Shown here: positions 550 through 46,180 of the stretch, one piece after another | How the letters are laid out: the number at the start of each line of letters is the position of its first letter | How positions within the stretch are numbered: position 1 is the stretch's first letter | Virus record (IMG/VR): IMGVR_UViG_3300031228_000006 | Span: 1 to 61,388 of that record | Origin: a virus | Taxonomy: Duplodnaviria > Caudoviricetes | Reading direction: 5' to 3' (one strand) | Length of the DNA stretch: 61,388 bases | Notes under the pieces: model-generated | Databases searched by the model: none | Seen by the model: only the letters and a program-made list of their open reading frames with translations | What the model was told of the DNA's origin: nothing | Translations under genes and position numbers: made by a program

Positions 550-702
550 AACGAATATGTGGGCCCTGACCTGGGAAAACGCAACTAATGTATGTGCGAC
601 GTTCGTTCTCTAGTTGTGAACCCCCGTTGTTAGCGGCCAGTGTTCTTCTCGTAGCACCCGCCCCGCTCACACAGGGGGTGAGCGTGCAGGAGCAAAGCAT
701 TA

Positions 703-724
703 GTTTGAAAACTCAACAGTGTGT
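703..724 (+). promoter_or_regulatory. rrn-leader-like boxA/CL2 antitermination element
   Basis: GTTTGAAAACTCAACAGTGTGT closely resembles the actinobacterial rRNA leader motif (TTGAGAACTCAAYAGYGTG) as I recall it. It sits at the head of the long early arm. Confidence 0.65.
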
Positions 725-1140
725 GCAGATCATCCGCCCGGCGGTGAATTCTGTCTGAAGCCCGATCTACCGGCGCCCCTGGTCCTCTCGACCGGATGCA
801 GGCGCCGACACGGTCACACTGCTTCCCCGTGCACGGCACGGCGGACGGTGACCACGGGAGACGACGACGGATGCCACGGTTCCTAGGTTTCGGGGGCGCT
901 TCGGTGCCAGCAGGACTACGCGGGATGTGATCGGAAGACGCACGATGAACGAGACAGCAAGTAGCCCCAACGTGCTACCGCGTGATTGCCGAGAATCCAG
1001 AGGGACGGAATGGCCCGAAGGTAGGTGAGCAACGGTGAGAGGCAGGGGAAGAAAGCGACCCGACAGGGTGAGGTACAACGACAGGCCTGCCGCATGGGCC
1101 TGTCTGGCAGTGATCGCAAACGGTGATCTGTCCCAGCAAC
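725..1140 (+). ncRNA. Candidate large structured non-coding RNA
   Basis: No credible ORF. Many stems: CGGCGCC/GGCGCCG, GGTCAC/GTGACC, GGCGC-TTCG-GTGCC, TACGCGG/CCGCGTG, GACAGGCCTG/TGGGCCTGTC. Confidence 0.45.
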
Positions 1141-1143
1141 ATC

Positions 1144-1205
1144 GGCGCGCATGGGTTCCCTGACACATGCGAGCAAGTCACCCGGTTCGATCCCGGGGCG
1201 CGCCA
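1144..1205 (+). ncRNA. tRNA-like element (acceptor stem plus T-arm, no canonical D-arm)
   Basis: 7-bp stem GGCGCGC (1144-1150)/GCGCGCC (1198-1204), followed by A. T-arm CCCGG-TTCGATC-CCGGG (1181-1197). Confidence 0.6.
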
Positions 1206-1239
1206 CTCAGACCACCTAGCACCAACTGAGGAGATTCCC

Positions 1240-1458
1240 ATGTCCTACATCATTCGCATCCTTGTCGACGGACAGGCCAACGACTGGCACCACGACAGCG
1301 AGATCATTGCAGAGGCTCGCTACTCCAGCACGGAGCACCTGGTCACCAATGACGACCGCTACCACGACTTTGAGGTCTCGGTCCAGTTGATTGAGTCCTT
1401 CACCGATGGCCGCGAGCCTGAGGTGCGCTACGAATTCACGAAGCCCATGGGCGAGTGA
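1240..1458 (+). CDS. hypothetical protein
   Basis: GAGGAG RBS, ATG at 1240, phage-like codon usage. Confidence 0.8.
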   Translation: MSYIIRILVDGQANDWHHDSEIIAEARYSSTEHLVTNDDRYHDFEVSVQLIESFTDGREPEVRYEFTKPMGE

Positions 1459-1462
1459 CCAA

Positions 1463-1523
1463 GCCGAAACGTCGCGAGACGTCCGTGCCCGGATGGCTTC
1501 CGGCACGCTGATGAGGCAAGCCA
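1463..1523 (+). ncRNA. Type II hammerhead ribozyme with loop I/3' tail pseudoknot
   Basis: GCC-GAAA-CGTC(gcga)GACG-TC-CGTGCC(loop)GGCACG-CTGATGA-GGC. Loop TGGCTT is complementary to AAGCCA at 1518-1523. Predicted cleavage after GUC (C1483). Confidence 0.92.
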
Positions 1524-1541
1524 CCTACCGAGGAGTTCACC

Positions 1542-1769
1542 ATGCACGATTACCACGTCGTCACGTTCGATCACGAGAAGGCGGCCGACTCCCTGGTCAG
1601 CGACCTGACCACGCTGAAGGTCCCCGACTTCATCGCCTACCCGTTCGAGTCGGCCTATGCGGTCGCCGTACGGATCCCGGATGGCGTGAGCACCGCCGAT
1701 CACATGGCGGCGGTCAAAGCCATTGCCCTGGGGCGCGGCTCGCACAACGTCCGATTCGCGAGGTTCTGA
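1542..1769 (+). CDS. hypothetical protein
   Basis: GAGGAG RBS, 75 aa ORF. Confidence 0.8.
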   Translation: MHDYHVVTFDHEKAADSLVSDLTTLKVPDFIAYPFESAYAVAVRIPDGVSTADHMAAVKAIALGRGSHNVRFARF

Positions 1770-1930
1770 TGTTCCACGTTCACGTCAGGACCTACAACAT
1801 CGCCACCCGCACGTGGACGCGCGAATTCGGACGCGCGTTCTCCTCCTACTCCCGCGAAGAGGCAGAGGCCAACTACGCGGAACAGCGTCGGGACCTTCCC
1901 GACGCCGAGATCACGATCACCGAAGACTGA
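1769..1930 (+). CDS. hypothetical protein
   Basis: TGATG coupling with the upstream gene; begins MFHVHVRTY. Confidence 0.7.
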   Translation: MFHVHVRTYNIATRTWTREFGRAFSSYSREEAEANYAEQRRDLPDAEITITED

Positions 1931-1957
1931 CCAACCACACCGGGCCCACGGGCCCGC

Positions 1958-2035
1958 GTGCCTGCCGGGGTACGGCGATGGCGACACGACCGCACATGCG
2001 GCGCGTTAGGGGTTCGACTCCCCCGCTGGGCACCA
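1958..2035 (+). ncRNA. Second tRNA-like element ending in ACCA
   Basis: T-loop GGGG-TTCGACT-CCCC, terminal pairing GTGCCT/GGGCAC, then CA. Intergenic. Confidence 0.45.
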
Positions 2036-2064
2036 AAGCACACCCACAACAACAGGAGATCATC

Positions 2065-2457
2065 ATGAGCACCTTCCGAGGATTCACCGTCGGCCTGATC
2101 ACGCGAGTCGAGCGCGCTGGCAACCATCACCTGGACCGGAACACCCTGAAGTTCTTCAACGCCTACGGTGGCACGCACGCGCCGATCAGTGACGACGCCG
2201 TAGCCGTGGTCGAGTCGGTCAAGTTCGACGACGAGCCGCGCGTCTACCGCGTGATGCTGTTCCGGTTCTTCCCGGCCGCCAAGCACGCCGAGACGCACGA
2301 GCGGTGCGAGTCGGCCGCGATCACCACGAACGGCACCAAGTACGCCGCCGAGAAGGCGCTCACCGACTTCGCCCGGGTCGCCCGGGCGAAGGGCGTGGCG
2401 TACTGGTCCGAGAACGACCGCTGGCTGAGCCGCCAGGAGAACTACAAGGGCTTCTGA
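2065..2457 (+). CDS. hypothetical protein
   Basis: CAGGAG RBS; begins MSTFRGF. Confidence 0.8.
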   Translation: MSTFRGFTVGLITRVERAGNHHLDRNTLKFFNAYGGTHAPISDDAVAVVESVKFDDEPRVYRVMLFRFFPAAKHAETHERCESAAITTNGTKYAAEKALTDFARVARAKGVAYWSENDRWLSRQENYKGF

Positions 2458-2464
2458 CACCTTG

Positions 2465-2501
2465 CATCGGCCATCCGTTCGAGGGGGATGGATGGCCGGT
2501 G
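2465..2501 (+). other. Long intergenic stem-loop without U-tract (RNase III-like processing site?)
   Basis: CATCGGCCATCCGT pairs with ATGGATGGCCGGTG. Confidence 0.45.
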
Positions 2502-2537
2502 TTCAGTGCCACGACACCCACCGAGAAAGGCACCATC

Positions 2538-3095
2538 ATGAGCGACCACGCACGCCCGACCGACTACACCCGCGAGGAGTGCCTCCAGGCTGCCCGCGAC
2601 GCCGAGCACGTCGCGGCCCACTCCGGCACCACCGAGATGCGAGAGCACTCCACACGCCTTGCCGCTGAATGGCGCGCACGGGCCGAAGCCCTGGACACCG
2701 ACACCCGCGACGAGCACTGCAACACCTGCGCCCACGCGCCCGGCTCGCACATCCTGCACGCCCACGTTGAGTCCGAGTCTGCCGACTGCGACGGCCGGTA
2801 CTCCCGAGACTACGTTCTCACCATGTGGGACGACGAGAAGACCGACGAGATGGGTGACCTGAAGTTCGAGTCACGCGTCATTGGCGACGTGGTGAGCACC
2901 AACTACCCCGGCACGCTCACGGTCACCCCGGCCGATCCGAGCGACCCCATCCGCGACCCGGCCATGCTGGAGTGGAGCGCCTCTACCGAAGAGGGATTCG
3001 AGGCCAAGGTCGTCCGGTTCTGCCGCGATGCCGACTGCGACCTGGACGAGCCCGGCACCCAGCGCGACCACAGCGCCGAAGCCGCCGGTTACTGA
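2538..3095 (+). CDS. hypothetical protein
   Basis: GAAAGG RBS, 185 aa. Confidence 0.8.
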   Translation: MSDHARPTDYTREECLQAARDAEHVAAHSGTTEMREHSTRLAAEWRARAEALDTDTRDEHCNTCAHAPGSHILHAHVESESADCDGRYSRDYVLTMWDDEKTDEMGDLKFESRVIGDVVSTNYPGTLTVTPADPSDPIRDPAMLEWSASTEEGFEAKVVRFCRDADCDLDEPGTQRDHSAEAAGY

Positions 3096-3097
3096 CC

Positions 3098-3199
3098 ATG
3101 GCCACCGTGCCGAAGCGACCGACCCCCAAGCCGTTCGCGCCCATCACCCACACCGTACGCAACTCCGCCCGGGTCCCCGGGCAGACCAGAAAGGCATGA
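3098..3199 (+). CDS. small basic hypothetical protein
   Basis: Fills the gap between genes with an ATGA overlap downstream. Confidence 0.45.
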   Translation: MATVPKRPTPKPFAPITHTVRNSARVPGQTRKA

Positions 3200-3687
3200 C
3201 CATGCGCATCCACACCAACACCATCGAACTCGCCGACGTCTACCGCGCCGATGTCCCGGCGCGTACTCAGGTCAACGTCACCGTGCACGGATCCCGCACC
3301 CACGCCCGCGCGTTCGAGGTCAGCCTGACCGGCGAGTCCCGCCGCAACAACCAGTCCAACACGGGCAAGGCTGCCACCTGGGACCAGTGGGGAGTCTTCC
3401 TCTCCGTCCTCTTCGACCGCGACCCCGAGATGGTGGTCGGATCGGTCAAGCGTCCGGTCTACGCTGACCGCTATGACTTCGACCGCAAGACCAACGGCCG
3501 GTTCGGACCCACCGACACCAACGGAGTCCGCTACGACATGAACCCCGGCACCACGGCACCCGTCGGCCGCTACTGGCCCACCGATGCCCACGGTGACCAC
3601 AAGTTCGAGTTCGAGGGCGTCCGCTACGACAGCGCGATCGTCCACCGATGCACCAAGTGCACCGCCGCACAGATCCGGTTCGCCTGA
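3196..3687 (+). CDS. hypothetical protein
   Basis: ORF with typical codon usage and C-terminal CxxC. Confidence 0.8.
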   Translation: MTMRIHTNTIELADVYRADVPARTQVNVTVHGSRTHARAFEVSLTGESRRNNQSNTGKAATWDQWGVFLSVLFDRDPEMVVGSVKRPVYADRYDFDRKTNGRFGPTDTNGVRYDMNPGTTAPVGRYWPTDAHGDHKFEFEGVRYDSAIVHRCTKCTAAQIRFA

Positions 3688-3944
3688 TGAGCGACGCGAT
3701 CCCCTACTGGGAAGTCAACGATGAGCGCGTGCTGCCCGAGACCCTGCCTAAGGTCCTGGAGGTCATCACCGCACAGGAGAACGCCACTGGTGAGCCGATC
3801 GACCGCAACCGACTCACGTTCGCCTGCCTGACCTGTGGATCGACTGCCGAGGTCAAGAGCCCCGAAGAGCGCGATACCACAGCGCTCCACCTGTCCATGC
3901 CGTGCGCCGAGTCACACGACACGGTCTACTTTCTGTCCAAATAG
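3687..3944 (+). CDS. hypothetical Zn-binding protein
   Basis: TGATG coupling; CxxC...HxxxxC. Confidence 0.75.
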   Translation: MSDAIPYWEVNDERVLPETLPKVLEVITAQENATGEPIDRNRLTFACLTCGSTAEVKSPEERDTTALHLSMPCAESHDTVYFLSK

Positions 3945-3959
3945 CGGTCCTCCAGTCAT

Positions 3960-3996
3960 CCGCCCATCCCATGGAACGACAGCATGGTATGGGCGG
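3960..3996 (+). other. Intergenic stem-loop without U-tract
   Basis: CCGCCCATCCCATG pairs with CATGGTATGGGCGG. Confidence 0.4.
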
Positions 3997-4036
3997 GTCA
4001 TCGGGTCGACCGACCCCACCTGAACAGGAGATCATC

Positions 4037-4105
4037 GTGAACACCATCATCAACGCGCTGGGCCGCTTCATCATGGCGTTCGAGCGCTTCCTGGAGGGAC
4101 GCTGA
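4037..4105 (+). CDS. small peptide (22 aa)
   Basis: CAGGAG RBS, GTG start. Confidence 0.5.
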   Translation: MNTIINALGRFIMAFERFLEGR

Positions 4106-4107
4106 CC

Positions 4108-4473
4108 ATGCTGGAGAAGATCGCCCAACTCTTCCTTGCCCACCTGCTCACCTGGGCCGTCGTCGGCATCCTGGGCTCGTACGTGGCCAACGCCTACTAC
4201 ACCGATCTGGAGGGTGTCGACCACCCGGACCAGGTCATGGCGACCCGCCCCGACGCGCCCGGCACCGACCGCGCCCTCTGGACCCAGTACGAGGACAAGT
4301 GCTGGAGGTACGAGGCCAGGGGTGAGGCTACCGGCGCCATCCTGCGCGTCGACCCCAACGACCCGTTCGTTTACACGACCAAGCCCCGGCTGGTCCAGCG
4401 AGCGATCGACCAAGCCGTTAACAAGCACGACCGAGGGCTCGACCGAGTCCTCGCCTTCTGCACCGACAAGTAA
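4108..4473 (+). CDS. membrane-anchored hypothetical protein
   Basis: N-terminal hydrophobic helix. Confidence 0.75.
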   Translation: MLEKIAQLFLAHLLTWAVVGILGSYVANAYYTDLEGVDHPDQVMATRPDAPGTDRALWTQYEDKCWRYEARGEATGAILRVDPNDPFVYTTKPRLVQRAIDQAVNKHDRGLDRVLAFCTDK

Positions 4474-4485
4474 AGGACACCCACC

Positions 4486-4665
4486 ATGATCTGGCTCGCC
4501 CTAGCCGTCACGATCGTCTACGTCTTGACGACCACCACCGTCCTCGCCACCCCGCAGGTGGCCAGCCCTCGCCGTAGCGTCGTCTGCTACCTGGTCACGA
4601 CGTTCTGCGTCGCTTTGGTCTGGTTCACGGCGTACGGCTACTACAACATGCGAGTCCCGGCATGA
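4486..4665 (+). CDS. small membrane protein (2 TM)
   Basis: AAGGA RBS; begins MIWLALAVTIV. Confidence 0.65.
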   Translation: MIWLALAVTIVYVLTTTTVLATPQVASPRRSVVCYLVTTFCVALVWFTAYGYYNMRVPA

Positions 4666-4796
4666 TCACGCAAGCCACGGCCATCATGGCCCGCGCCGAC
4701 TACAACAGCAACGAGGGGCTGGCATGGATCCTGATCGGCGGCGCCATCATGCTGTTCATCCTCTGGCTGATCGGCCCCAGCGACAGGAACAAGTGA
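4662..4796 (+). CDS. small membrane protein
   Basis: ATGA overlap; hydrophobic segment LAWILIGGAIMLFILWLI. Confidence 0.6.
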   Translation: MITQATAIMARADYNSNEGLAWILIGGAIMLFILWLIGPSDRNK

Positions 4797-4888
4797 TGAC
4801 GTTCCGCCAGGGCTTCACCGCCGCCGTCCTCTGCATCCTGCCCGTCTGGGCAGGCGTCATCATCTACATCATTCGAACGAAAGGCTGA
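4796..4888 (+). CDS. small membrane peptide
   Basis: TGATG coupling; hydrophobic, 30 aa. Confidence 0.55.
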   Translation: MTFRQGFTAAVLCILPVWAGVIIYIIRTKG

Positions 4889-4892
4889 ACCC

Positions 4893-5039
4893 ATGGCAAC
4901 CCACCACCCCGCGTGCCCCGCCCGCCACGACCCGAACAAGCAGTGCATCTGCGCAGGCCTGGGCCGTCCGCCGAAGAAGCCGACGAGCCCCAAGACCCCC
5001 AACACTCCGAAGCGCCCCGGCGGAAGGCCCAAGCGATGA
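4893..5039 (+). CDS. small basic hypothetical protein
   Basis: H/C-containing N-terminus, K/P-rich tail, ATGA overlap. Confidence 0.5.
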   Translation: MATHHPACPARHDPNKQCICAGLGRPPKKPTSPKTPNTPKRPGGRPKR

Positions 5040-5536
5040 GCGGCCTGCAAGTCGGCGACAGGGTCCGACTGATCAACGACGACGAGCCCAAACTCAAGAG
5101 GGCGGGGGTCGTCAACGGTCACACCGGCACGATCACCCTCGCCGATACTGTCCCGCCCGACGCCGTCCAGTTCGTGGAGTGGCGCCCAGACGGAAGGGAT
5201 GGATTCCGCGACGGGGACGTCTTCAAGGCGAACCGATTCGAGAAGATGCCCACCACGGGTCCCGGCGAGGCCATCGCCGCCGTCCAGCAAGCCAACTTCG
5301 AGGGCTTCTCGGATCTGGTCGACGCCGAGAACGCCAAGATGGTGGACCAGGCCGAGAAGGACCAGATCACCGCCCTTCAGGACATGCTCAACGAGGCCGA
5401 GGGTCAACTCATCGTCGCCCGCGACTCCCTGAGCCGACAAGCCGCCGTCACCAACTGGCTGTGCGAGTCCGACCCCGAACTGAAAGCCAAGATCAACGCC
5501 TTCAGCGCTGGTTGGACCCGCGCTAAGCGCTCCTGA
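5036..5536 (+). CDS. hypothetical protein (SH3/KOW-like N-terminus, coiled coil)
   Basis: Begins MSGLQVGDRVRL. Confidence 0.75.
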   Translation: MSGLQVGDRVRLINDDEPKLKRAGVVNGHTGTITLADTVPPDAVQFVEWRPDGRDGFRDGDVFKANRFEKMPTTGPGEAIAAVQQANFEGFSDLVDAENAKMVDQAEKDQITALQDMLNEAEGQLIVARDSLSRQAAVTNWLCESDPELKAKINAFSAGWTRAKRS

Positions 5537-5537
5537 G

Positions 5538-5552
5538 TCTCACATCGTGGAC
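5538..5552 (+). promoter_or_regulatory. TCTCA-N5-TGGAC operator-like site
   Basis: TCTCAcatcgTGGAC, intergenic. Confidence 0.6.
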
Positions 5553-5616
5553 AGTCACTAGCCTGTCCTCGGTGTGATCCGACAGGATCGACACCCACTA
5601 GAGAAACGAGATCATC

Positions 5617-5958
5617 ATGAGCGACCGATACGACCGCCTGCCGAAGTGGGCGCACGAGGAGATCCTTGACCTCCAGCGTCGCGCCCTGGCCGCCGAGAAC
5701 GACGCCACCCTGGCCCGCCGGGAGGCCAGCGAGGCCAACCCCGACACCCGCACCTTTCTGGACGCCGGGTTCGGCCGCGAGGACATCCCGCTTCCCGAGC
5801 GCCAGAACGTCATCTTCAAGTTGCCCAACGGCAAAGTGACCGTCCGCGAGGAGAGCGGCAGCGTCTACGTGAACACCGTCAGTGACGGCAGGACGATCAC
5901 GGTTGTCATGCCGCACGCCTCCAACGCTCTCACGATCGCTCTGGTGGAGATCCGGTGA
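5617..5958 (+). CDS. hypothetical protein
   Basis: 113 aa ORF. Confidence 0.8.
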   Translation: MSDRYDRLPKWAHEEILDLQRRALAAENDATLARREASEANPDTRTFLDAGFGREDIPLPERQNVIFKLPNGKVTVREESGSVYVNTVSDGRTITVVMPHASNALTIALVEIR

Positions 5959-6566
5959 GGACCATCTTCGGCCGGGTCCACATGACCCGTGAGGAGTGGC
6001 TCAACGCCGCCGCCGCCCGGCTGGCCACCGACTTCGATGACGTCTTCGCCGAGCACGGCAAGCCGGAGATCTTCAGGAACGCCATGTACGCGGCCGGATG
6101 GCCGAGCCGTGGCGGCCAGTCCAAGGTGATCGGGCAGTGCTGGCCGACCAGCGCGTCCGGGGTCGCCCACGTCTTCATCAACCCCCGCCTCGGTGAGGAC
6201 ATCGTCGAGGTCCTCGCCACCCTCGCCCACGAGATGGCGCACGCCGCTGACGACTGTGGGTCAGGCCACAAGGGCCCCTTCACCAAGATGATCCGCAAGA
6301 TGGGCCTGACCGGGAAGCCCACGGCCACCGTGGCCGGTGAGGAGTTCGAGGCTTGGGCCAAGTCGGCCGCCGCCGCGCTGGGGCCCTACCCCCACAAGGC
6401 GATCACCGGCGTCAACCCCAACCTGAAGAAGCAGGTCAGCCGCCAGTTGAAGGTGTACGCCAAGGACTGCGACTCCTGCGACTACGTCGCCCGGACCACC
6501 CGCAAGTGGCTGGACGACCTGGGGGCGCCCAAGTGCCCCCACGGCGTCACCATGACCGAAGCCTGA
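5955..6566 (+). CDS. SprT-like zinc metalloprotease domain protein
   Basis: TLAHEMAH (HExxH), downstream GHKGPF and C-terminal Cys motifs. Confidence 0.75.
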   Translation: MRTIFGRVHMTREEWLNAAAARLATDFDDVFAEHGKPEIFRNAMYAAGWPSRGGQSKVIGQCWPTSASGVAHVFINPRLGEDIVEVLATLAHEMAHAADDCGSGHKGPFTKMIRKMGLTGKPTATVAGEEFEAWAKSAAAALGPYPHKAITGVNPNLKKQVSRQLKVYAKDCDSCDYVARTTRKWLDDLGAPKCPHGVTMTEA

Positions 6567-6600: not shown

Positions 6601-7194
6601 ATGAAGAAGAACGAGATCAAGATCGGCGAGCACTACGCCTACCAGGAGCACTCCTACTCCCGGGTCTACCGGGTCATGGTCGAGGCCGAGGCGCAGATCC
6701 CGAAGGCCAAGTACCCGAAGTACGGTAACCAGAACACCGTCACCGGTTGGCGTCTCCGCATGGCCGACGGCGGCAAGTTCTCCGTCACGGGGTCGAACTG
6801 GACCACCACCAAGGTCGACACCATCGACGTCCCGAGCCGCACCCTGCTGGCCACCTGGGCCGACCACGTCGCCGCTCGCGAGGCCAGCGAGAAGGCCCAG
6901 CGAAAGGCCGCCGAGCACCGCCTGGAGGGACTCACCAAGAAGTTCCGACTCCTGTTGCAGGTCAGCGACGCGATGGACTTCCTCCAGCCCGAGCGCGAGT
7001 ACCGCGAGGTCACCCTGCGCAACGGCCATGCCGAGGCGGCAAGGGCGGCCGGATGGACCGTCACCATCGGGGCGATCCGCACCCGGCTCGACCTCGGTCA
7101 CGGCTACTTCGATGTCTCCCGAGACGAGGTCAGCCTGAAGGATGTCGCCGTCCTCGCGCGGGCGATCGTCGACACCCCCGAGTACACCGAGTGA
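6601..7194 (+). CDS. hypothetical protein
   Basis: 197 aa ORF. Confidence 0.8.
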   Translation: MKKNEIKIGEHYAYQEHSYSRVYRVMVEAEAQIPKAKYPKYGNQNTVTGWRLRMADGGKFSVTGSNWTTTKVDTIDVPSRTLLATWADHVAAREASEKAQRKAAEHRLEGLTKKFRLLLQVSDAMDFLQPEREYREVTLRNGHAEAARAAGWTVTIGAIRTRLDLGHGYFDVSRDEVSLKDVAVLARAIVDTPEYTE

Positions 7195-7370
7195 AGAGCA
7201 AGGCTCTGCTGATCTGGGGCGCGGTGGCACTGGTCATCGCGCCCTTCTTCACCATCCCCGTCCTGATGCTGGTCGCCGTCGTGTGGCTGTGCGTCTACCT
7301 GTCCAAGTCTCCCCAGCGGGACGCGGCCAACATCAACCACCTCGCCAACGAAGGGCGCCACTGGCTATGA
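7191..7370 (+). CDS. small membrane protein
   Basis: GTGA overlap; hydrophobic. Confidence 0.6.
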   Translation: MKSKALLIWGAVALVIAPFFTIPVLMLVAVVWLCVYLSKSPQRDAANINHLANEGRHWL

Positions 7371-7810
7371 CGATCGACCAACTCCCCCTCCTCTTCGACT
7401 GGGACGACTTCGAGGAGGCCGTCCGGACCGGACGCTTCAGCACCATCCGGGACGCGAAGATCTTCGTCGCCAAGGTGCTCGGTCTGGATGCCAAGATCAA
7501 CCACGACGTCTGGCGACAGATCAAGGGCGGCATGTTCCCCGAGGAGCGCAAGATGCTCACCGGCCTGCCGCCCTACGACTTCGGCAAGTACGAGGCCGAG
7601 CGGATGAGGCGACTGGCCGAGTTCGGCCAGGACCCGCCGCCGCGCCCCGACCCCACGTCGAAGTGCTCCCACTGCGACACCCCCCTGAACGACGAGAACA
7701 TCGCCCTGCGGATCCGCAAGCCGTACGCCATCTGGCAGTGCCTCAACTGCGAGCGGATCCGCAGCCGGAACCGCCGAGCCGCCAATCGCAACCAGAAAGC
7801 GAGCACATGA
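7367..7810 (+). CDS. Zn-finger hypothetical protein
   Basis: CSHC...CLNC followed by a basic tail. Confidence 0.7.
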   Translation: MTIDQLPLLFDWDDFEEAVRTGRFSTIRDAKIFVAKVLGLDAKINHDVWRQIKGGMFPEERKMLTGLPPYDFGKYEAERMRRLAEFGQDPPPRPDPTSKCSHCDTPLNDENIALRIRKPYAIWQCLNCERIRSRNRRAANRNQKAST

Positions 7811-10907: not shown

Positions 10908-11197
10908 TGAGCCGGTGGAACGGATTCAAGGGCGTCGGCGAGAAGACCGACGGCGGCTGGCTCTACAGGTGCGACGGCATGCCCACCGTGATGGGCTGTG
11001 GCGCGCAGGTCACAATCACCGTGCCCTACGCCCGTGTCGGCAAGAAGTCGACCGGCTGGCTGGTGACGTATGGCCTGGCCGACCCCGAGTCCACGACCAA
11101 CGCCGATAGCAAGGGCAACGACCTGGACGTGGTCCTGGTCTTCTGCCCGAGTTGTGCCAAGGTCGTCGAAGAGCAGGACAAGAGGAGAGGGGGGTGA
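10907..11197 (+). CDS. Zn-ribbon hypothetical protein
   Basis: TAATG coupling; CDG...GC...CPSC. Confidence 0.7.
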   Translation: MSRWNGFKGVGEKTDGGWLYRCDGMPTVMGCGAQVTITVPYARVGKKSTGWLVTYGLADPESTTNADSKGNDLDVVLVFCPSCAKVVEEQDKRRGG

Positions 11198-11342
11198 TCC
11201 GCATGCGACAGGACACGAGTTGGTGACCAAAGGGCGGCCCCCGCCGGTGCTTAACCGACGGGGGCCACGCTCATCACGCCCGATCGCTGACGCTGGATCG
11301 GGCTTCCTCATCCCATCCCCACGAGACACAAGGACAACGACA

Positions 11343-11924
11343 GTGATTCAAGACGGTTACGGCGACATGGTGCCGGACGAGGAGTTCGTCGAGCGCTGGA
11401 TCGGACATGCACACGCCAGCGCTGACCGCGCGGTCCGGCGCAACGACCCCCGCTACGACGACGTGCTCCAGGAAGCCCTGATCGAGATCTGGCGCACCGC
11501 GCAGGCCCACCCCGGCGCCATGGCGTCCTATGTCGCTAAGGCGTCCAAGTATCACGCCATGGACATCGCCATGGGCGCCCGGCCGATGCTGAGCACCGAG
11601 AACACTCCCGGCCCCAAGTACCGCCCCGAGACCGTCGCCGTGGACTGGCAGGCTGACAAGGATGAGTCCGTCATGGACGAGCCCGTCGAGATGTCCGACC
11701 CGCTAGCCGCCGTCGAGTGGGGCTACCACCACGGATTCTTGGCGCAGGTGCTGGACACCCTGAGGCCGGACGACCGGGAGTACGTCGTACGCCGGTTCTG
11801 GCTCGATCAGTCGGTCGACCAGATCTCAGACGAACTCGGGATCCATCGCAACAAACTCGACGCCGCCTGGAAGCGACGGATCAAGCCCCGACTCGCCAAG
11901 GCCCTGGAACTTCTGGCCTCCTAA
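11343..11924 (+). CDS. sigma-70 (ECF-like) region 2/region 4 protein
   Basis: DDVLQEALIEIWR (region 2-like) and LDTLRPDDREYVVRRFWLDQSVDQISDELGI (region 4 HTH-like). Start uncertain (11343 or 11367). Confidence 0.65.
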   Translation: MIQDGYGDMVPDEEFVERWIGHAHASADRAVRRNDPRYDDVLQEALIEIWRTAQAHPGAMASYVAKASKYHAMDIAMGARPMLSTENTPGPKYRPETVAVDWQADKDESVMDEPVEMSDPLAAVEWGYHHGFLAQVLDTLRPDDREYVVRRFWLDQSVDQISDELGIHRNKLDAAWKRRIKPRLAKALELLAS

Positions 11925-41350: not shown

Positions 41351-42025
41351 TCACGGAGCCTGGTCGATACCCATCTCGTCCAGGAGAGCGAGCCAGCCGG
41401 GCCCGCCGAAGAGCCAGCGCTCGGAGTACCCGAGGGTGCTGTCCTCCTCGCCGGTGAGCGTGACGCCCCAGCCGATGGGGTCGTCGCCGCCGCCGAAGTT
41501 CTGCTCGGCGTAGCCGGTCACCTTGGCGCGGGGGAGGAACCGGCCGATGTAGATCTCGCCGCCGTCGCCCTCGTCCACCGCGAGCGAGAGCGTGCGGTAG
41601 TGACGGCTGGTCGGGCGGGTCGGCTTGGCGATGGAAACCTCGCCGCTGTCGGCGTCGGCGAGGATGCCCGAGAGGTCGGCCCCGGTCGCCATGCCGAGGG
41701 TCAGCAACTTGGTCTCCTGCGCGAGGAACGTCAGGGTCGTGGTGTCCGAGGTGATGTCGGTTCGGGTCGGCGATACCGAGCCCCACGAGGTGACCTCGGA
41801 GTTCGCGACATCACGAGAGAACTGGGCACCGTCCGAGGACAGCCAGCCCGCGTCGTCCCAGTCGGTCGGGAGCGCGGTCAGGTCAATGACCACGGGCGGC
41901 CCGGCGGAATAGGTCGTCAGGTCGACGATCGGCCCGGCGGTGATGGGGGCGACAAAGACGGAGCCGTCGAGCGCCTTCCGGATCAGTTCCTGCTGCTTGT
42001 TCCGCAGGGTGGCGTAGTTGGGCAT
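41351..42025 (-). CDS. major tail protein
   Basis: LIRKAL.GSVFVAP...GWLSSDG...TSWG...PTRTDITS; GGAGG RBS; terminator-like hairpin downstream. Confidence 0.85.
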   Translation of the reverse strand: MPNYATLRNKQQELIRKALDGSVFVAPITAGPIVDLTTYSAGPPVVIDLTALPTDWDDAGWLSSDGAQFSRDVANSEVTSWGSVSPTRTDITSDTTTLTFLAQETKLLTLGMATGADLSGILADADSGEVSIAKPTRPTSRHYRTLSLAVDEGDGGEIYIGRFLPRAKVTGYAEQNFGGGDDPIGWGVTLTGEEDSTLGYSERWLFGGPGWLALLDEMGIDQAP

Positions 42026-42105
42026 CTTGCCTCCATAGGTCAGGGTTGCTTGGGTCTTCAGCGCCCCAAGCCTAGGAGGCACGTCTTCTCAGCCCAGTTT
42101 ACACG
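42026..42105 (-). promoter_or_regulatory. Conserved structured leader, copy 1 (major tail)
   Basis: 42057-42089 is identical to 47281-47313; anti-SD/SD stem plus inner hairpin. Confidence 0.8.
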
Positions 42106-42106
42106 T

Positions 42107-42499
42107 CTAGCCCTTTCGGCGAGACGTGAAGACGTAAGTAGCGCTCAGCCTGGTGACGTTGTCGTCCTCCCAGGGGCCGGGCGCCGGGGCGACGTTCTGG
42201 AACACCCTGTCGATCAGCATGGTGCTGGTCTTGTGATACTTGCCGACCAGCAGGGCACTGATGGCGTTCGCGTGGTCCAGGGTCGTCAGGTAGTTGTCGC
42301 CGAAGACGTCGATGTCTACGGTCCAGGAGCCGTTGGTCTGGGTCTCCGCTCCGCCGCCAGGAACCAGCATCACGCAGACGTAGAGTCCCTGTCCTGCGGT
42401 GTAGTTGAGCGCGCCACCGACCTTCCCGGCCGCAGCCGGGTACTTGGTCTGGATGACCTCCTGCACGGCCTTTTGGATGCTTGTGAATGGCTGAGTCAC
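42107..42499 (-). CDS. tail terminator-like protein
   Basis: Position before the major tail gene; VDIDVFG motif. Confidence 0.7.
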   Translation of the reverse strand: MTQPFTSIQKAVQEVIQTKYPAAAGKVGGALNYTAGQGLYVCVMLVPGGGAETQTNGSWTVDIDVFGDNYLTTLDHANAISALLVGKYHKTSTMLIDRVFQNVAPAPGPWEDDNVTRLSATYVFTSRRKG

Positions 42500-42927
42500 C
42501 TGGGGCCCCCTTTGAAGTCGCCGACTTCTCCGCCAGCATGTGCCAGCGCGCGTACCCGAGGCTGACCTCGGCCACCGAACTCGATCAACGCCGATCCTGC
42601 GACGTTGTTGACGACCTCCACCTTAACGCGAGCATTGCCGCCGACCAGCATGAGACCCGCGTTGCGGCGAACTCGATAGCCCTTGGCGACGCTGGCGTGC
42701 CAGCCGGTCGTCTTCTCGTCGGTACCGCTCTTCTTCTGCTGCTTGGGCGAGAGCGCCCCGGCCCGGACCGCAATGTGCCCAGAGGCCTCGGCGGTGACAT
42801 CGCGCATCTGCTCCGAGCGCATGAACGCACCGAAGGATTTTCTGTTCTCGACGTAGCGAACACGCTCGCCGGGCCTGAACCTGATCCGCGTACGGCGCTC
42901 CGGGAAGACGATCCCGGCGTCGCTCAT
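42496..42927 (-). CDS. neck/tail completion protein
   Basis: Position; ALIEFG motif. Confidence 0.65.
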   Translation of the reverse strand: MSDAGIVFPERRTRIRFRPGERVRYVENRKSFGAFMRSEQMRDVTAEASGHIAVRAGALSPKQQKKSGTDEKTTGWHASVAKGYRVRRNAGLMLVGGNARVKVEVVNNVAGSALIEFGGRGQPRVRALAHAGGEVGDFKGGPR

Positions 42928-43253
42928 GAGCCGACCTTGGTCAGGTAGAAGATGGTCGCCTTGCCGATCCCACGCTTGTTCTCGTAGTGACCGGGCTCAC
43001 CGTCGACGTCCCAGGGCTCGGGGTCGCCGGGCAGAAGGATCTTGTCGTCGGCCTTCACGTCTGAACCGAAGGGGGCGACGACCATCTGGCCCTCGACGAT
43101 CACCCAGCCGCGCTCTTCCTCGAAGGAGGTTCGCGGCACGATCATGCACCCGAGAATCTGGTGGTTCGCCGGAGTACTCGGGGTCGAGTCGAGCGGGTCT
43201 CGTCGCTCCTCGCGACGGACCGTGACCGTCCGCTTGCCGATCTTCTTGGCCAT
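42924..43253 (-). CDS. head-to-tail stopper
   Basis: APFGSDVKADD.I...W.VDGEP motif. Confidence 0.7.
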   Translation of the reverse strand: MAKKIGKRTVTVRREERRDPLDSTPSTPANHQILGCMIVPRTSFEEERGWVIVEGQMVVAPFGSDVKADDKILLPGDPEPWDVDGEPGHYENKRGIGKATIFYLTKVGS

Positions 43254-43792
43254 CAGCCCTGGCCGCCCGGGTCGCCCGGATTGAAGAGGGGGATCTTCCA
43301 CTCGCGCGGGTCGGACGAGGTGGAGAGGTTGATCTGCTGGTCGTCGCCGACGTACAGGGTCTCGACCGGTAGCAGGGACTCGGGGCCAGGCGAGGTCGGG
43401 ATGGTGAAGACCTCACCGGCGCCCTCGGGCGGGTTCGGGTCGCCGTCCGGGTTGTACTTGGTGATCGTCGTACGCTCGGACTTGGTCAGATCCATGAAGA
43501 GCGCGTAGTCGTCCACGTGGCGGTCTCCGCCGATCGGGCCGACGTTACCCTCTGCGACCACCTGGGTCGGGTTCTCGTAGGAGCGTTTACACACCTGGAG
43601 GACGACCATCTCGACGTCGAGCGGAACCCGGTTCTCGCCCGGGTCGAGCGTCCAGTCGACGTTTCCGCCGAGGAAGCGAGCCAGGTTCGACATCTTCTCG
43701 CAGATCTCGATCGCGAGGGGGTCCTCTTCGACCTCGTCCTCGTCGTTCTGCGTCCACGCGGCCAGAGTGCCGAAGGTGATCAGGTTCGCCAT
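43253..43792 (-). CDS. head-to-tail adaptor
   Basis: VP.DVEMVVLQVCKRSYENP...LTKSER motif. Confidence 0.75.
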   Translation of the reverse strand: MANLITFGTLAAWTQNDEDEVEEDPLAIEICEKMSNLARFLGGNVDWTLDPGENRVPLDVEMVVLQVCKRSYENPTQVVAEGNVGPIGGDRHVDDYALFMDLTKSERTTITKYNPDGDPNPPEGAGEVFTIPTSPGPESLLPVETLYVGDDQQINLSTSSDPREWKIPLFNPGDPGGQG

Positions 43793-43804
43793 GTCACTAT
43801 CCTA

Positions 43805-44095
43805 TCAGCGCTGCTTGACGCGGATCTTCAGCGTACGGTCGTCCTGGCGGCCAGCCGAGGTCGTGATGTGGCAGGTCGCCAAGTAGACGACGCCCTCGAC
43901 GCCACCCTGGAGCCACACGACGCACTTGCCGTCGGTGATGGACTCCTCGTGGACCGTGGCCTTCTCCAGGGCGCCTACACCGGTGGGCGAGAGGGTCCAG
44001 GTCGCGTCCTCGATCGTCTCGTCAGCCTCCAGCCAGGTGCTGTAGTCGAAGCCGTATTCAAGGACGGCGTCAGGGTCATGCGGGATCGACGCCAT
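43805..44095 (-). CDS. putative fibre adaptor protein
   Basis: DPDAVLEYGFDYSTWL...VWLQGG..G..Y...C.ITTSAGR.DDRT. Confidence 0.6.
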   Translation of the reverse strand: MASIPHDPDAVLEYGFDYSTWLEADETIEDATWTLSPTGVGALEKATVHEESITDGKCVVWLQGGVEGVVYLATCHITTSAGRQDDRTLKIRVKQR

Positions 44096-45299
44096 GGATG
44101 CGGTCCTCTTTCTCGACTGAAACGATGCGGTTCTCCGCTGCTACGGAGTATACGCGAGACTCACTAGCCACGGTCGTCATTCGGCCGGGGTCGGGGGTGA
44201 CGTCGGACGGCGGCGGCTGGAACCGCAGGAAGCCCCCGGAGACCGAGTCAGACTGGCCGCTGACCGGCAGGGCGAGCGCGATGACGCCCCCGGAGCCGGA
44301 CGTCGCTGCCGAGGTTCCCGAGACGCCCAGGGCGGCCGAGGTTTCGATCGTAGAGGTGCTCGTGCTGGCCGACTCGCCGGACACCGGGATCCGGGCCGCG
44401 ATATCGAGCGAGGAGTCACTCAGGGTGGCCGTCTCGCCCGACATGGGTTTCCGGGCCGCGATTGCCAGCGAGGAGTCGCTGATCGATTCGGAGGTCCCGG
44501 CGATCGGGCGCGTGGCGGCAATCTCCGCCGAGCCGGACGACGAGGACTCGGACGGCCCCGAGGTCACCGTGGCATTCAGAGTGGGGGTCAGCGACGAGGC
44601 CGAGGCGCTCGCGCTCGTGCCGGAGATGGCGTACGCCGTACCGGGCGGGGGCGGGTCTACAGCGTTGATCGCGAAGACCAGTCGCTCGCACGACATGCTC
44701 GTGATCGTCGAGGTGGCCGCCGAGGAGTACGTCGCCCCGACCTGATCTTCGAGGTAGGAAAGCGAGTAGCCGTAGCCGTCGGTCACCGCCAGGGGTACGC
44801 CGGTGTCCACAGCCTCGGCGCCGTTGCTCCAGGTGAACGACGACGGCGTCGCGCCGGTGATGTCCTGGCCGACGACTGCCGCTCGGAAGTCGGCCGCAGC
44901 GGTCAGGCCAGACAGCGAGGGCCCGGCGCCGCCAGAGGCTGAAACATTTCCCTGTGCGGCGGAGCCGATGAAGGCCGATCCGGCGGCGAACTCATAGATG
45001 TCGAAGACGACCGGGTAGTTCGAGCCGTTGTGCGTCGTGGAGAAGGTGTCGCCACCGGCGGCCGTCCGGTACCAGAGGTAGAGACCGGTGTTGTTGACCG
45101 CCGAGCCCCCGGCGGGCAGCGTCCAGCCGCTCGGGGTCGTGCTCGTCACGGCACCCTCGGCCAGGACGACCAGGAGCCGCCCGGCGGTCGGTGTAAACGC
45201 GCTGCCAGCGACAACCGTCCCAGAGGCCGGATTGACCGTGTGCGAGTTCGTGCCGTTGCGCGGGGCGGCGATGGTGACGTGGTTCAGCCACTTGACCAT
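44076..45299 (-). CDS. putative head/neck fibre protein with Ser/Ala-rich ~19-aa repeats
   Basis: Beta-rich N-terminal domain followed by (I/V)SG.S...S.SS..I repeats. Confidence 0.6.
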   Translation of the reverse strand: MVKWLNHVTIAAPRNGTNSHTVNPASGTVVAGSAFTPTAGRLLVVLAEGAVTSTTPSGWTLPAGGSAVNNTGLYLWYRTAAGGDTFSTTHNGSNYPVVFDIYEFAAGSAFIGSAAQGNVSASGGAGPSLSGLTAAADFRAAVVGQDITGATPSSFTWSNGAEAVDTGVPLAVTDGYGYSLSYLEDQVGATYSSAATSTITSMSCERLVFAINAVDPPPPGTAYAISGTSASASASSLTPTLNATVTSGPSESSSSGSAEIAATRPIAGTSESISDSSLAIAARKPMSGETATLSDSSLDIAARIPVSGESASTSTSTIETSAALGVSGTSAATSGSGGVIALALPVSGQSDSVSGGFLRFQPPPSDVTPDPGRMTTVASESRVYSVAAENRIVSVEKEDRIHGVDPA

Positions 45300-45312
45300 G
45301 GCCTATAGCCCG

Positions 45313-45663
45313 TCAGTCGAGCGTGTGGCGAAGGGACCCGGCGGCCACGGTCAGCGTGTCGCCGGTCAGGAGCGAGCGCGGGTTGTCGACGGGCTCCCAG
45401 GTCGACTTCTGAACGCCACCGGTGGAGGCCGAGAAGGTAGCCCAGTGCGTGACGTCGGTGGGGCCGGTGGCAACGGCCGAGGTGAGCGCGCTGGCGTTCT
45501 CCTTGACGGACGGAGTCGCGGCGGAGGCGTTCGTCCAGTCGGTGACCGCCGTACGCGCCACGGCTGACAGGGTGCCCGATGAGTCCGAGGCCCACGCGAT
45601 ATAGTCGGTGTCGACGAACACGTTATCCAGTGCCTGCTGCTGCATCGCCTGAGTCATTGACAT
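45313..45663 (-). CDS. putative virion fibre-associated protein
   Basis: VTHWATFSASTGG...L.GDTLT..AGSL...LD. Confidence 0.6.
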   Translation of the reverse strand: MSMTQAMQQQALDNVFVDTDYIAWASDSSGTLSAVARTAVTDWTNASAATPSVKENASALTSAVATGPTDVTHWATFSASTGGVQKSTWEPVDNPRSLLTGDTLTVAAGSLRHTLD

Positions 45664-45704
45664 GGTGGTGCTCCTGAGTCCTAGTGGTGTGCTCAGGATA
45701 GCAG

Positions 45705-46028
45705 TCAGGAGCCGACCTTCAGGTCAGTTGTCCGGCCGTTCTCAATCCAGACGAACTCGCCGTCAGGACCAACCGGCAGATGCTTCCGGCACCCGCAGCA
45801 GTAGGTGGCTCCGTAGAACCTCGGATCGCGAGCGTACGTCTCGGCGATCGGCAACGCCATGGTGGTCTGGGCGCCACACGGGAGGTGCAGGTAGGACTTC
45901 CTGACCGGACGAATGAAGCCCTGCTTGCGCTCCTCGTCGGAGAGGACCAGGTACGCCTCGGCTTGGTCTACGGGCTCCTCGTCGGCGCCATGCGTCAGGC
46001 GAGGGTCGTTCGGGTCGTCGGTGATCAT
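45705..46028 (-). CDS. Cys-rich hypothetical protein
   Basis: YLVLS.EER..GFIRPVR..Y.H..CG..TTM...AETYARDP.FYG.TYCCGC; TATCCT 6 nt before ATG. Confidence 0.75.
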   Translation of the reverse strand: MITDDPNDPRLTHGADEEPVDQAEAYLVLSDEERKQGFIRPVRKSYLHLPCGAQTTMALPIAETYARDPRFYGATYCCGCRKHLPVGPDGEFVWIENGRTTDLKVGS

Positions 46029-46148
46029 GTCTCCAGGATACCAGCGGAACGCGCGGCCCGACCCGGGGTCATCTTCCACCGTTCCGGACTTCTCGGGCCG
46101 CGCTAGTCCTCGTCAGGACTTCCTGCCCAGGAGGCCCCGCCAGCATAG

Positions 46149-46180
46149 CAAAACCCCCCGACCCGAAGGCCGAGGGGTCT
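46149..46180 (-). terminator. Terminator after the major capsid gene
   Basis: Hairpin followed by TTTTT on the - strand. Confidence 0.6.

What the first reader, a model, noticed from the sequence alone, without database searches (positions are those of the whole stretch)
620..4030. Early operon built like a mock rRNA operon: boxA antiterminator plus a series of different cis RNA-cutting elements
Seen in sequence, in order: an rrn-leader-like boxA/CL2 (703-724), a ~420-nt structured region, a tRNA-like element (1144-1205), a hammerhead (1463-1523), a second tRNA-like element (1958-2035) and two long U-tract-less stems (2465-2501, 3960-3996). Each of the last five lies just upstream of a strong RBS. 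Known: T7 cuts its early RNA with RNase III, and rrn operons use boxA/Nus factors plus RNase III/P/Z. Inference: one antiterminated early transcript is cut into separately stabilised mRNAs by interchangeable devices (self-cleavage, RNase P/Z mimics, RNase III stems). I am not aware of this combination being described as a system.
Basis: partly seen in the sequence, partly recalled or inferred. Interest (0 to 1): 0.88.

Follow-up and report, generated by a model that had tools for sequence, protein, structure and literature searches.

The report
BoxA-led, RNA-punctuated phage early operon
The first genes of this soil actinobacterial phage sit behind a copy of the host's ribosomal-RNA anti-termination signal and are separated by conserved RNA folds (a self-cutting ribozyme, two tRNA look-alikes, two long hairpins) that probably mark where one long message is cut into stable pieces, although no RNA data exist yet.

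Summary
Window 704-723 matches, at 20 of 20 positions, the motif found upstream of 16S rRNA in Actinomycetota. A complete type II hammerhead with its pseudoknot lies at 1463-1523. Two acceptor-stem/T-arm tRNA mimics and two long hairpins lie where stated, each 18-38 nt before a ribosome-binding site and start codon. In the only close relative found (metagenome contig L139), 4 of 4 covered elements are kept in order at 94-96% identity. The genes there are 69-81% identical, and 9 of 16 have no counterpart in the window. Hairpin 1 shows three compensatory pairs and hammerhead helix III one. Not supported: the "420-nt structured region" folds no better than shuffles; the tRNA mimics fail the tRNA models; L139's hammerhead has a core G8-to-A change. 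New here: the same boxA motif heads leaders in other phage contigs. Three of these, plus cultured Streptomyces phage Alsaber, carry arrays of 6-9 covarying mini-tRNA-like elements in their early intergenic gaps. Cutting, antitermination and interchangeability are inferred, not shown. Earlier agents of this scan noted tRNA-minihelix punctuation in other phages. Verdict: real, conserved RNA punctuation; a new variant built from known kinds.

The parts
602..617 (+). 16-nt word holding a -10-like CTAGTTGT (610-617); a candidate early promoter element only
   Evidence: The same 16-mer recurs at 61340-61355. CTAGTGT follows the operator motif at 19674, 23031 and 47979, and L180 has CTAGTTGTG, then a hairpin, then boxA. 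This is inference; the consensus scan did not call a promoter here.
654..688 (+). GC-rich hairpin just upstream of boxA (the boxB-like position)
   Evidence: Seen in the fold and by direct reading. rrn leaders and phage leaders also show a hairpin before the motif.
704..723 (+). rrn-leader boxA/boxC-type motif
   Evidence: Exact match to the degenerate pattern, 0 expected by chance. In 12 of 12 genomic loci checked the motif lies upstream of 16S rRNA.
724..1143 (+). Non-coding leader, not demonstrably structured
   Evidence: z = +1.6; no codon periodicity; not covered by any relative.
1144..1205 (+). tRNA-like element 1: 7-bp acceptor stem, 30-nt linker, 5-bp T stem with T loop, discriminator A, no CCA
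   Evidence: The mini-tRNA-like model R1 matches only its T arm (10.6 bits, E 0.25).
1463..1523 (+). Type II hammerhead; predicted cut between 1483 and 1484; pseudoknot 1494-1499 with 1518-1523
   Evidence: Conserved in L139 at positions 999-1064.
1942..1955 (+). Small conserved hairpin immediately 5' of tRNA-like element 2
   Evidence: 5 pairs, identical in L139.
1960..2035 (+). tRNA-like element 2: acceptor 1960-1966/2025-2031, T arm 2009-2023, middle hairpin with a 4-nt loop, CCA 2033-2035 (the CCA is not conserved)
   Evidence: All 21 model pairs are kept in L139, with one G-U to G-C change.
2458..2508 (+). Hairpin 1: 17-bp stem 2464-2502, a 3x3 internal loop and a 3-bp lower helix
   Evidence: z = -5.3. 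All 20 pairs are kept in L139, with 3 double compensatory changes, 1 one-sided change and 1 deleted pair.
3947..4010 (+). Hairpin 2: core 3958-3998 with outer helices
   Evidence: z = -2.5. 96% identical in L139 between unrelated genes. Both substitutions in the core stem keep pairing.
1240..4105 (+). Gene blocks set off by the elements: 1240-1458 | 1542-1769, 1769-1930 | 2065-2457 | 2538-3095, 3098-3199, 3202-3687, 3687-3944 | 4037-4105...
   Evidence: ORFs, third-codon-position GC content and Shine-Dalgarno motifs. Genes within a block overlap or are 2 nt apart. The proteins have no known family except PHROG phrog_18547 for 3202-3687.

Best explanation
Window 620-4030 is the head of the phage's early operon, and the phage most likely infects an actinobacterium. 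A hairpin followed by an rrn-type boxA/boxC motif in the untranslated leader most likely recruits host NusB/NusE and the other Nus factors. RNA polymerase would then be able to read through about 520 nt of untranslated leader and several structured intergenic RNAs.

The transcript is punctuated at gene-block boundaries by five conserved RNA elements:
- The hammerhead cuts itself after C1483. This would leave the upstream RNA ending in the helix III hairpin and the downstream RNA starting with a 5'-OH and the helix I hairpin.
- The two tRNA top-half mimics are most likely cut by the host tRNA-end enzymes (RNase P on the 5' side, RNase Z or similar on the 3' side).
- The two extended hairpins act either as double-strand RNase sites or as protective ends.

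The result would be separately stabilised mRNAs for each translationally coupled gene block.

Shown: the presence, placement, strand and conservation of the elements, their covariation, and the recurrence of the boxA-plus-tRNA-like layout in other actinophages. Inferred: every biochemical step.
For: boxA: exact match with 0 expected by chance, and the motif is the conserved element upstream of 16S rRNA in 12 of 12 actinobacterial loci checked.

Hammerhead: full-length Rfam match. All 22 pairs, including the 6-bp pseudoknot, are kept in L139, with one compensatory pair in helix III. The architecture matches the type II consensus of PMC3088659.

Conservation: 4 of 4 elements covered by L139 are retained in the same order, at 89-96% mean column identity; the hammerhead and tRNA-like 2 intergenic stretches are 84-86% identical end to end. 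Coding sequence is 69-81% identical by comparison. 9 of 16 L139 genes and 5 of 12 window genes have no counterpart.

Hairpin 1: 3 double compensatory changes.

Placement: all five elements lie between a stop codon (or the leader) and a ribosome-binding site, while genes lacking an element are translationally coupled.

Parallel systems: the boxA pattern occurs in 9 viral contigs. Of five records scanned whole, three carry 7, 8 and 6 hits to the mini-tRNA-like model R1, downstream of boxA on the same strand. Streptomyces phage Alsaber has promoters, a hairpin and a boxA-like motif (3 mismatches), then 9 R1 hits: 8 in gaps between annotated early genes and one in the leader before the first. R1 covariation: 93% of cells paired against 62% in shuffles, and 10 of 12 pairs show changes on both sides, across 19 copies.
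Against: There is no RNA evidence of any kind.

The hammerhead scores below Rfam's gathering threshold, and its z-score is unremarkable (-0.37). L139 carries G8-to-A in the catalytic core without the compensating C3-to-U change. Under PMC3088659 this predicts weak or no activity, unless it is an assembly error.

tRNA-like 1, the boxA and the leader are not covered by any relative, so their conservation is untested.

tRNA-like 1 and 2 are not found by ARAGORN, by the Rfam tRNA model or by model R1.

No promoter upstream of boxA is established. The only consensus promoter-like hit (705-733) overlaps boxA itself.

Conservation rests on one relative, a 4.9-kb metagenome contig.

Conserved islands between unrelated genes are also what recombination at shared linkers would leave behind.
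Confidence: 0.5

Rival explanations
1. The hairpins, and possibly the tRNA-like folds, are not cut. They act as pause or termination signals, or as 3'-end barriers against exonucleases. The boxA complex modulates read-through, so the elements set the polarity of expression along the operon rather than directing RNase III-type processing.
For: Hairpin 1 is a near-perfect 17-bp GC-rich stem followed by a U-poor tail. Elsewhere in this genome, strong U-less hairpins sit at operon boundaries next to the operator motif. Terminators without U tails have been claimed for actinophage early regions; I recall a title to that effect and it was not read here.
Against: No terminator-like site is called at either hairpin. 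Purified mycobacterial RNA polymerase did not terminate at hairpins lacking U tracts, even with NusA and NusG (PMC3993855, abstract and passages read). The conserved internal loop and lower helix of hairpin 1 are not needed for a simple barrier.
Confidence: 0.25
2. The conserved intergenic islands are mainly DNA-level recombination linkers. Their shared sequences at module boundaries would let gene cassettes be swapped between related phages. On this reading their RNA folds are incidental or secondary.
For: Every gene replacement between the window and L139 ends at or next to one of the elements. Hairpin 2 is 96% identical between unrelated genes on both sides.
Against: Compensatory changes keep hairpin 1 and hammerhead helix III paired, which selection for DNA identity would not produce. 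The hammerhead core and pseudoknot are too specific to be incidental. The related mini-tRNA-like arrays covary strongly and occur only on the coding strand.
Confidence: 0.12
3. The tRNA-like elements are decoys or sponges for host factors that act on tRNA acceptor ends or elbows (defence nucleases, nucleotidyltransferase toxins), or they are decaying phage tRNA genes. On this reading they are not processing signals.
For: They keep the acceptor stem and T arm but lack an anticodon loop. Their only database likeness is to the T arms of real phage tRNA genes, at E 0.6-0.9.
Against: Decay is unlikely: tRNA-like 2 is 95% identical in L139 while the neighbouring coding sequence is 75% identical. The elements sit precisely between a stop codon and the next ribosome-binding site, and the arrays in other phages occupy early gene gaps. 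That fits punctuation better than a decoy, although the two roles are not exclusive.
Confidence: 0.08
4. Part of the picture is chance. The boxA match would in fact be the -35 part of a promoter, tRNA-like 1 a fortuitous palindrome with a T-loop-like word, and the leader ordinary spacer.
For: A promoter-like site TTGAAA-17-GATCAT at 705-733 overlaps boxA. tRNA-like 1's perfect pattern appears in 7 of 200 shuffles. Neither feature is covered by a relative.
Against: A 20-of-20 match to the rrn motif had 0 matches in 100 shuffles, while promoter-like hits are expected at 0.8 per 6 kb. The same motif heads non-coding leaders in other phage contigs. The T-arm motif is enriched, 4 against 0.75 expected.
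Confidence: 0.05

Closest known systems
rrn operon leader antiterminator (hairpin, boxA, boxC; NusB/NusE and the rrn antitermination complex) and the lambda nut sites
   Same: Same 20-nt motif as upstream of actinobacterial 16S rRNA genes. It has the same order as rrn (hairpin, then boxA, then a GU-rich stretch) and the same position in an untranslated leader. Phage use of boxA is classic for lambda (PMC2724277, passages read).
   Different: It heads protein-coding genes, not rRNA. No N-like or Q-like protein was recognised (which covered only 10 early proteins). Likeness to rrn leaders stops after about 25 nt. Binding and antitermination are untested.
Type II hammerhead ribozymes flanking genes in prophages (Perreault et al. 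2011, PMC3088659; Rfam RF02276)
   Same: Same permuted architecture, same core, same pseudoknot between loop I and the 3' tail, and an intergenic position in a phage polycistron. That paper proposed processing of long phage transcripts and showed in vitro cleavage of three tandem arrangements.
   Different: There is a single hammerhead here, sharing the operon with non-ribozyme elements. The score is below Rfam's gathering threshold, and the relative has a G8-to-A core change.
t-elements of plant mitochondria (Forner et al. 2007, PMC1920247); the mitochondrial tRNA punctuation model and MALAT1 mascRNA are recalled
   Same: Non-canonical tRNA-like folds with a conserved GGTTCRANYCC T arm lie beside mRNA ends and direct RNase P or RNase Z cuts. 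Both window elements carry that motif. One Alsaber mini-element gave a weak, sub-threshold hit to the mascRNA model (21.5 bits, E 0.97).
   Different: The host here is a bacteriophage of Actinomycetota. The elements keep only the acceptor stem and T arm, and no ends have been mapped.
Mini-tRNA-like intergenic arrays of Streptomyces Camvirus-type phages and related contigs (defined here as model R1; unannotated in the records seen)
   Same: A boxA(-like) motif at the head of the operon is followed by acceptor/T-arm minihelices, in 8 of Alsaber's annotated early intergenic gaps and in its leader, always on the coding strand.
   Different: The window's elements are not members of R1; only local T-arm matches were found. 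The window mixes element types, whereas those phages repeat a single type.
RNase III processing sites of the phage T7 early polycistronic mRNA (recalled; no paper read)
   Same: Extended hairpins with an internal loop lie between early genes and leave hairpin-capped mRNAs.
   Different: No RNase III evidence exists here. Hairpin 1 is a nearly perfect 17-bp helix rather than a T7-type bulged site.

Membership tests
Hammerhead ribozyme type II (RF02276) | Conserved core CUGAUGA ... GAAA and a cleavage triplet ending in C17 | tested here: met
   Direct reading of 1466-1469, 1481-1483 and 1508-1514; Rfam alignment.
Hammerhead ribozyme type II (RF02276) | Helices I and III closed by loops, helix II open, and a pseudoknot between loop I and the 3' tail | tested here: met
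   All 22 pairs form in both the window and L139, including the 6-bp pseudoknot. The consensus is described in PMC3088659.
Hammerhead ribozyme type II (RF02276) | Score at or above Rfam's gathering threshold | tested here: not met
   27.3 bits against 37; L139 scores 22.9 bits. The model cannot score the pseudoknot.
Hammerhead ribozyme type II (RF02276) | Self-cleavage | not testable with these tools
   No RNA run holds the sequence.
tRNA (RF00005) | Cloverleaf with a D arm and a 7-nt anticodon loop, detected by tRNA models | tested here: not met
   ARAGORN found 0. No Rfam tRNA hit at E up to 10. The middle parts are a 30-nt linker (element 1) and a hairpin with a 4-nt loop (element 2).
t-element-like tRNA mimic (processing signal) | Acceptor-like stem stacked on a T arm with GGTTCRANYCC, next to mRNA boundaries | tested here: met
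   placement.
t-element-like tRNA mimic (processing signal) | RNase P / RNase Z cleavage at its ends | not testable with these tools
   No RNA data.
rrn-type boxA antiterminator | Sequence match to the host-clade rrn leader boxA | tested here: met
   Published consensus sequences from E. coli and B. subtilis share the UUUGAAA/CUUUA core (PMC13753749).
rrn-type boxA antiterminator | Lies in the transcribed leader downstream of the promoter | tested here: inconclusive
   No promoter could be assigned with confidence.
rrn-type boxA antiterminator | NusB/NusE binding and terminator read-through | not testable with these tools
   Needs biochemistry or reporter assays.
Mini-tRNA-like family R1 (Streptomyces phage arrays) | Full-length match to the covariance model | tested here: not met
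   Only local T-arm matches at 10.6 and 8.4 bits, E 0.25 and 0.69, with filters off.
Intrinsic terminator | GC-rich hairpin followed directly by a U tract | tested here: not met
   No terminator-like site at 2464-2502 or 3958-3998.
RNase III site | About two turns of double-stranded RNA, often with an internal loop, cut by RNase III | tested here: inconclusive
   The 17-bp stem plus 3-bp lower helix with a 3x3 loop is compatible. Cleavage is untestable here.

The most novel reading that the evidence does not exclude
Many actinobacterial phages may build their early operons as imitation stable-RNA operons. An rrn-type boxA would load the host's rRNA antitermination and RNA-chaperone complex. 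tRNA top-half mimics, ribozymes and hairpins would take the place of the tRNA and rRNA processing sites, so that the host's stable-RNA maturation enzymes, not its mRNA decay machinery, define and stabilise each early mRNA. The same elements would also serve as fixed joints between which gene cassettes are exchanged.
Probability: 0.4. Interest if true: 0.85.

Novelty: new variant of a known kind. Interest (0 to 1): 0.72.

Why it matters
How phages with dozens of tiny early genes control the dosage and stability of each message is poorly understood outside T7, T4 and lambda. This operon combines four known devices: boxA antitermination, a self-cleaving ribozyme, tRNA-like processing signals and extended hairpins. 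The parallel arrays found in cultured Streptomyces phages make the idea directly testable in a tractable host.

If confirmed, several things would follow:
- Nus-factor antitermination by phages would extend to Actinomycetota without an N-like protein.
- Bacteria and phages would have a counterpart to the tRNA punctuation of organelles.
- The conserved non-coding islands at mosaic junctions of actinophage genomes would be explained.
- Compact parts for building multi-gene operons in Streptomyces would become available.

I found no description of this layout in the searches. Those cover open-access papers and preprints only. The supplementary lists of PMC10690425 and PMC3088659, which might include such motifs, could not be opened.

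Tried and rejected
- Rfam at gathering thresholds on the whole window gave 0 hits.
- ARAGORN at default settings found 0 tRNAs. At lowered thresholds it gave 549-775 calls, which is noise, so I did not use it.
- The "structured 420-nt region" is rejected on energy (z = +1.6).
- The leader as a hidden rRNA fragment: no SSU/LSU hit.
- Close relatives in the phage collection: none; there was only a 66-nt match inside a gene.
- Single-protein scans of viral contigs with 2538-3092, 3202-3684 and the portal gave no close full-length relative.
- A profile scan gave only distant relatives, none of which had the elements.
- Exact-pattern scans of viral contigs for the 3' half of tRNA-like 1 and for hammerhead helix I gave 0 and 0.
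- The other metagenome loci L140-L174 showed no clear elements.
- Homologues of the 3202-3684 protein lie on contigs of 59-62 kb (P0004, P0027, P0040, P0111).
- Sequencing runs: no RNA holder is listed; the only holder is a DNA run that may be the source sample.
- Model R1 does not include the window's elements.
- The other boxA-bearing loci L176-L180 and L183 have no ribozyme at E up to 0.5 and no R1 hits inside the loci.
- L180 is not a relative in its early region.
- The minimum-free-energy cloverleaf of tRNA-like 2, which uses 1950-1958 as the acceptor strand, is rejected. By my reading of the alignment, two of its pairs break in L139. This alternative was not run through the pair counter.
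- The scan of our own findings showed no look-alike stretches of this window in other genomes.

Full report
**What the window is.** The window is a complete 61,388-bp IMG/VR virus record, about 65% G+C. Genes run on the plus strand from 1.2 to about 26 kb. Portal, lysin, helicase and primase-polymerase genes lie on the minus strand. An SprT-like protein has its nearest relatives in Arthrobacter and Microbacterium phages. With the rrn-type motif below, this points to an actinobacterial host. The early proteins between 1240 and 4470 match no Pfam family. One (3202-3684) matches an uncharacterised PHROG.

**boxA.** I loosened the window's 704-723 at three positions, guided by my memory of mycobacterial rrn leaders.
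- The pattern matches the window once, and 0 of 100 shuffles match.
All 80 titles shown name Actinomycetota by my reading.
- In 12 of 12 loci tested with Rfam, the motif lies 101-358 nt upstream of the 16S gene on the same strand (distances worked out by hand).
- Among 121 genomic matches the variants were split 63, 32, 14, 11 and 1. The window's exact 20-mer was not among them, and likeness outside the motif is weak.
- A GC-rich hairpin (654-688) precedes the motif, as in rrn leaders visible. A GU-rich stretch follows it. This is the rrn order described in PMC2724277 and PMC13753749 (passages read).
- No promoter could be fixed. The only consensus hit (705-733) overlaps the motif. A CTAGTTGT word at 610-617 resembles words that follow an operator motif elsewhere in the genome.

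**Hammerhead.** Rfam's type II model aligns end to end at 1462-1525 with 27.3 bits (gathering score 37) and E = 0.014 for this search.
- The core, GAAA, the helix III A-U pair and the GUC site are intact by direct reading.
- Loop I (1494-1499) pairs with the tail (1518-1523), a feature the covariance model cannot score.
- This pseudoknot is the hallmark of type II hammerheads and is needed for fast cleavage (PMC3088659).
- The fold is not unusually stable (z = -0.37).

**tRNA-like elements.**
- Element 1 (1144-1205) has a perfect 7-bp acceptor stem, a 30-nt linker, a 5-bp T stem with a canonical T loop and a discriminator A. This perfect pattern arose in 7 of 200 shuffled genomes.
- Element 2 fits only a looser pattern that is not significant by itself (3 sites against 2.4 expected).
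- The t-element motif GGTTCRANYCC occurs 4 times against 0.75 expected. Two copies are these elements; the other two lie inside long minus-strand ORFs.
- Neither element is a tRNA by ARAGORN or Rfam.

**Hairpins and leader.** The folded windows 2455-2510 and 3945-4010, which hold hairpins 2464-2502 and 3958-3998, give z = -5.3 and -2.5. Neither hairpin has a U tract. The 622-1239 leader is non-coding, but it folds no better than shuffles (z = +1.6).

**The one close relative.** A profile of three homologues of the 3202-3684 protein retrieved metagenome contig L139 (4,940 bp). It is collinear with window positions of about 1220-5000. It starts just after tRNA-like 1, so it says nothing about boxA, the leader or element 1.
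- Shared coding sequences are 69-81% identical in DNA.
- Only 7 of 16 L139 genes have a window counterpart. 5 of 12 window genes have none in L139.
- The hammerhead, tRNA-like 2 with its small upstream hairpin, hairpin 1 and hairpin 2 are all present in the same order. Mean column identities are 94, 95, 89 and 96%.
- Hairpin 1 keeps all 20 pairs, through three double compensatory changes, one one-sided change and one deleted pair. Its loop, internal loop and flanks are unchanged.
- Hammerhead helix III has one compensatory pair, and the pseudoknot keeps six pairs.
- tRNA-like 2 keeps all 21 pairs of my model, with one G-U to G-C change. The CCA at its end is not kept.
- Both substitutions in the core of hairpin 2 keep pairing.
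- Against the reading: L139's hammerhead has A at core position 8 without the compensating change at position 3. PMC3088659 reports 3/8 covariation in active variants, so that copy may be weak, dead or mis-assembled.

**A wider pattern.** The boxA pattern occurs in 9 IMG/VR contigs, and none has 16S or 23S rRNA in the fetched DNA.
- One contig (L181) has the flank of Arthrobacter rrn leaders and is probably host DNA.
- A 20-nt pattern may occur about once by chance in a collection of this size (my rough estimate, not computed). The context matters more: the motifs sit in non-coding leaders after promoters and a hairpin.
- In L175 and L182 I noticed repeated minihelices about every 500 nt downstream of boxA, just after stop codons.
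- Ten copies aligned with 94% of cells paired and 10 of 12 pairs changed on both sides; 0 of 500 shuffles reached this. They gave model R1.
- R1 found 7, 8 and 6 copies in the whole records of L175, L182 and L183, and 0 in those of L180 and L178.
- blastn of the L175 array hit unannotated DNA in 9 named Streptomyces phages (12 records) and 2 Microbacterium phages.
- In Streptomyces phage Alsaber (NC_054677) the right end shows three consensus promoters, a hairpin and a boxA-like word with 3 mismatches. Nine R1 hits follow: eight lie in gaps between annotated early genes and one lies in the leader before the first gene.
- Across 19 copies, 93% of cells pair against 62% in shuffles. That alignment was fitted to the model, which favours it.
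- No Rfam family covers these elements. The only hit was a sub-threshold one to mascRNA, E 0.97.
- The window's own elements are not members of R1; they are analogues.

**Reading.** The layout is a leader with an rrn antiterminator, followed by gene blocks separated by structured RNAs that resemble substrates of stable-RNA processing.
- Hammerhead cleavage would leave hairpins at both new ends.
- The small hairpin 1942-1955 would cap the upstream RNA after an RNase P cut at 1959/1960.
- Both points are inferences.
- Interchangeability of devices is not shown: in L139 each slot holds the same device.
- The elements may double as recombination joints, since every cassette difference ends at one.

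**Literature.** Hammerhead punctuation of phage polycistrons was proposed in 2011 (PMC3088659). tRNA-like processing signals are established in plant mitochondria (PMC1920247). Mycobacterial polymerase does not terminate at U-less hairpins in vitro (PMC3993855). For all three I read passages only. Searches for boxA or tRNA-like punctuation in actinophages found nothing. Supplements were closed.

**Earlier work in this scan.** Earlier agents reported tRNA-minihelix punctuation, and in one case a twister ribozyme beside minihelices, in other uncultured phages. These are unchecked notes and I do not count them as independent evidence.

Noticed in passing
L185 (Streptomyces phage Alsaber NC_054677, reverse complement of 41529-48803) 644-6006; also L175 8617-11250 and L182 13-1603 (minus strand): Arrays of covarying mini-tRNA-like elements (acceptor stem, an 11-nt conserved linker, 6-bp T stem, T loop) lie in early intergenic gaps downstream of a boxA(-like) motif. 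They are unannotated in the records and absent from Rfam 15.
   Followed up: yes
L175 7027-7062: A 36-nt stretch after the boxA looks like a 16S rRNA helix. It matched a feature annotated as 16S ribosomal RNA in a phage-collection record and is 100% identical to Streptomyces phage Stella 45558-45593.
   Followed up: no
At 47979 CTAGTGT follows without an obvious hairpin. These may be combined operon ends and promoters.
   Followed up: partly
window 602-617 and 61340-61355: The same 16-nt word stands near both genome ends in the same orientation. At the right end it abuts the operator motif.
   Followed up: no
window 11070-11921: A 284-aa protein gives a weak sigma-70 region 4 match (E 2.6e-4, below the Pfam cut-off). 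It may be a phage sigma-like factor.
   Followed up: no
   Followed up: no
L175 about 7190-7420 and L185 about 220-610: Runs of two or three consensus TTGACA-N17/18-TAGAGT promoters, each with a hairpin-forming spacer, stand upstream of the boxA motifs.
   Followed up: no
L151 about 2885-2960: A CUGAUGA ... CGAAAC arrangement in a distant relative's contig might be another hammerhead. It was not folded or scored.
   Followed up: no
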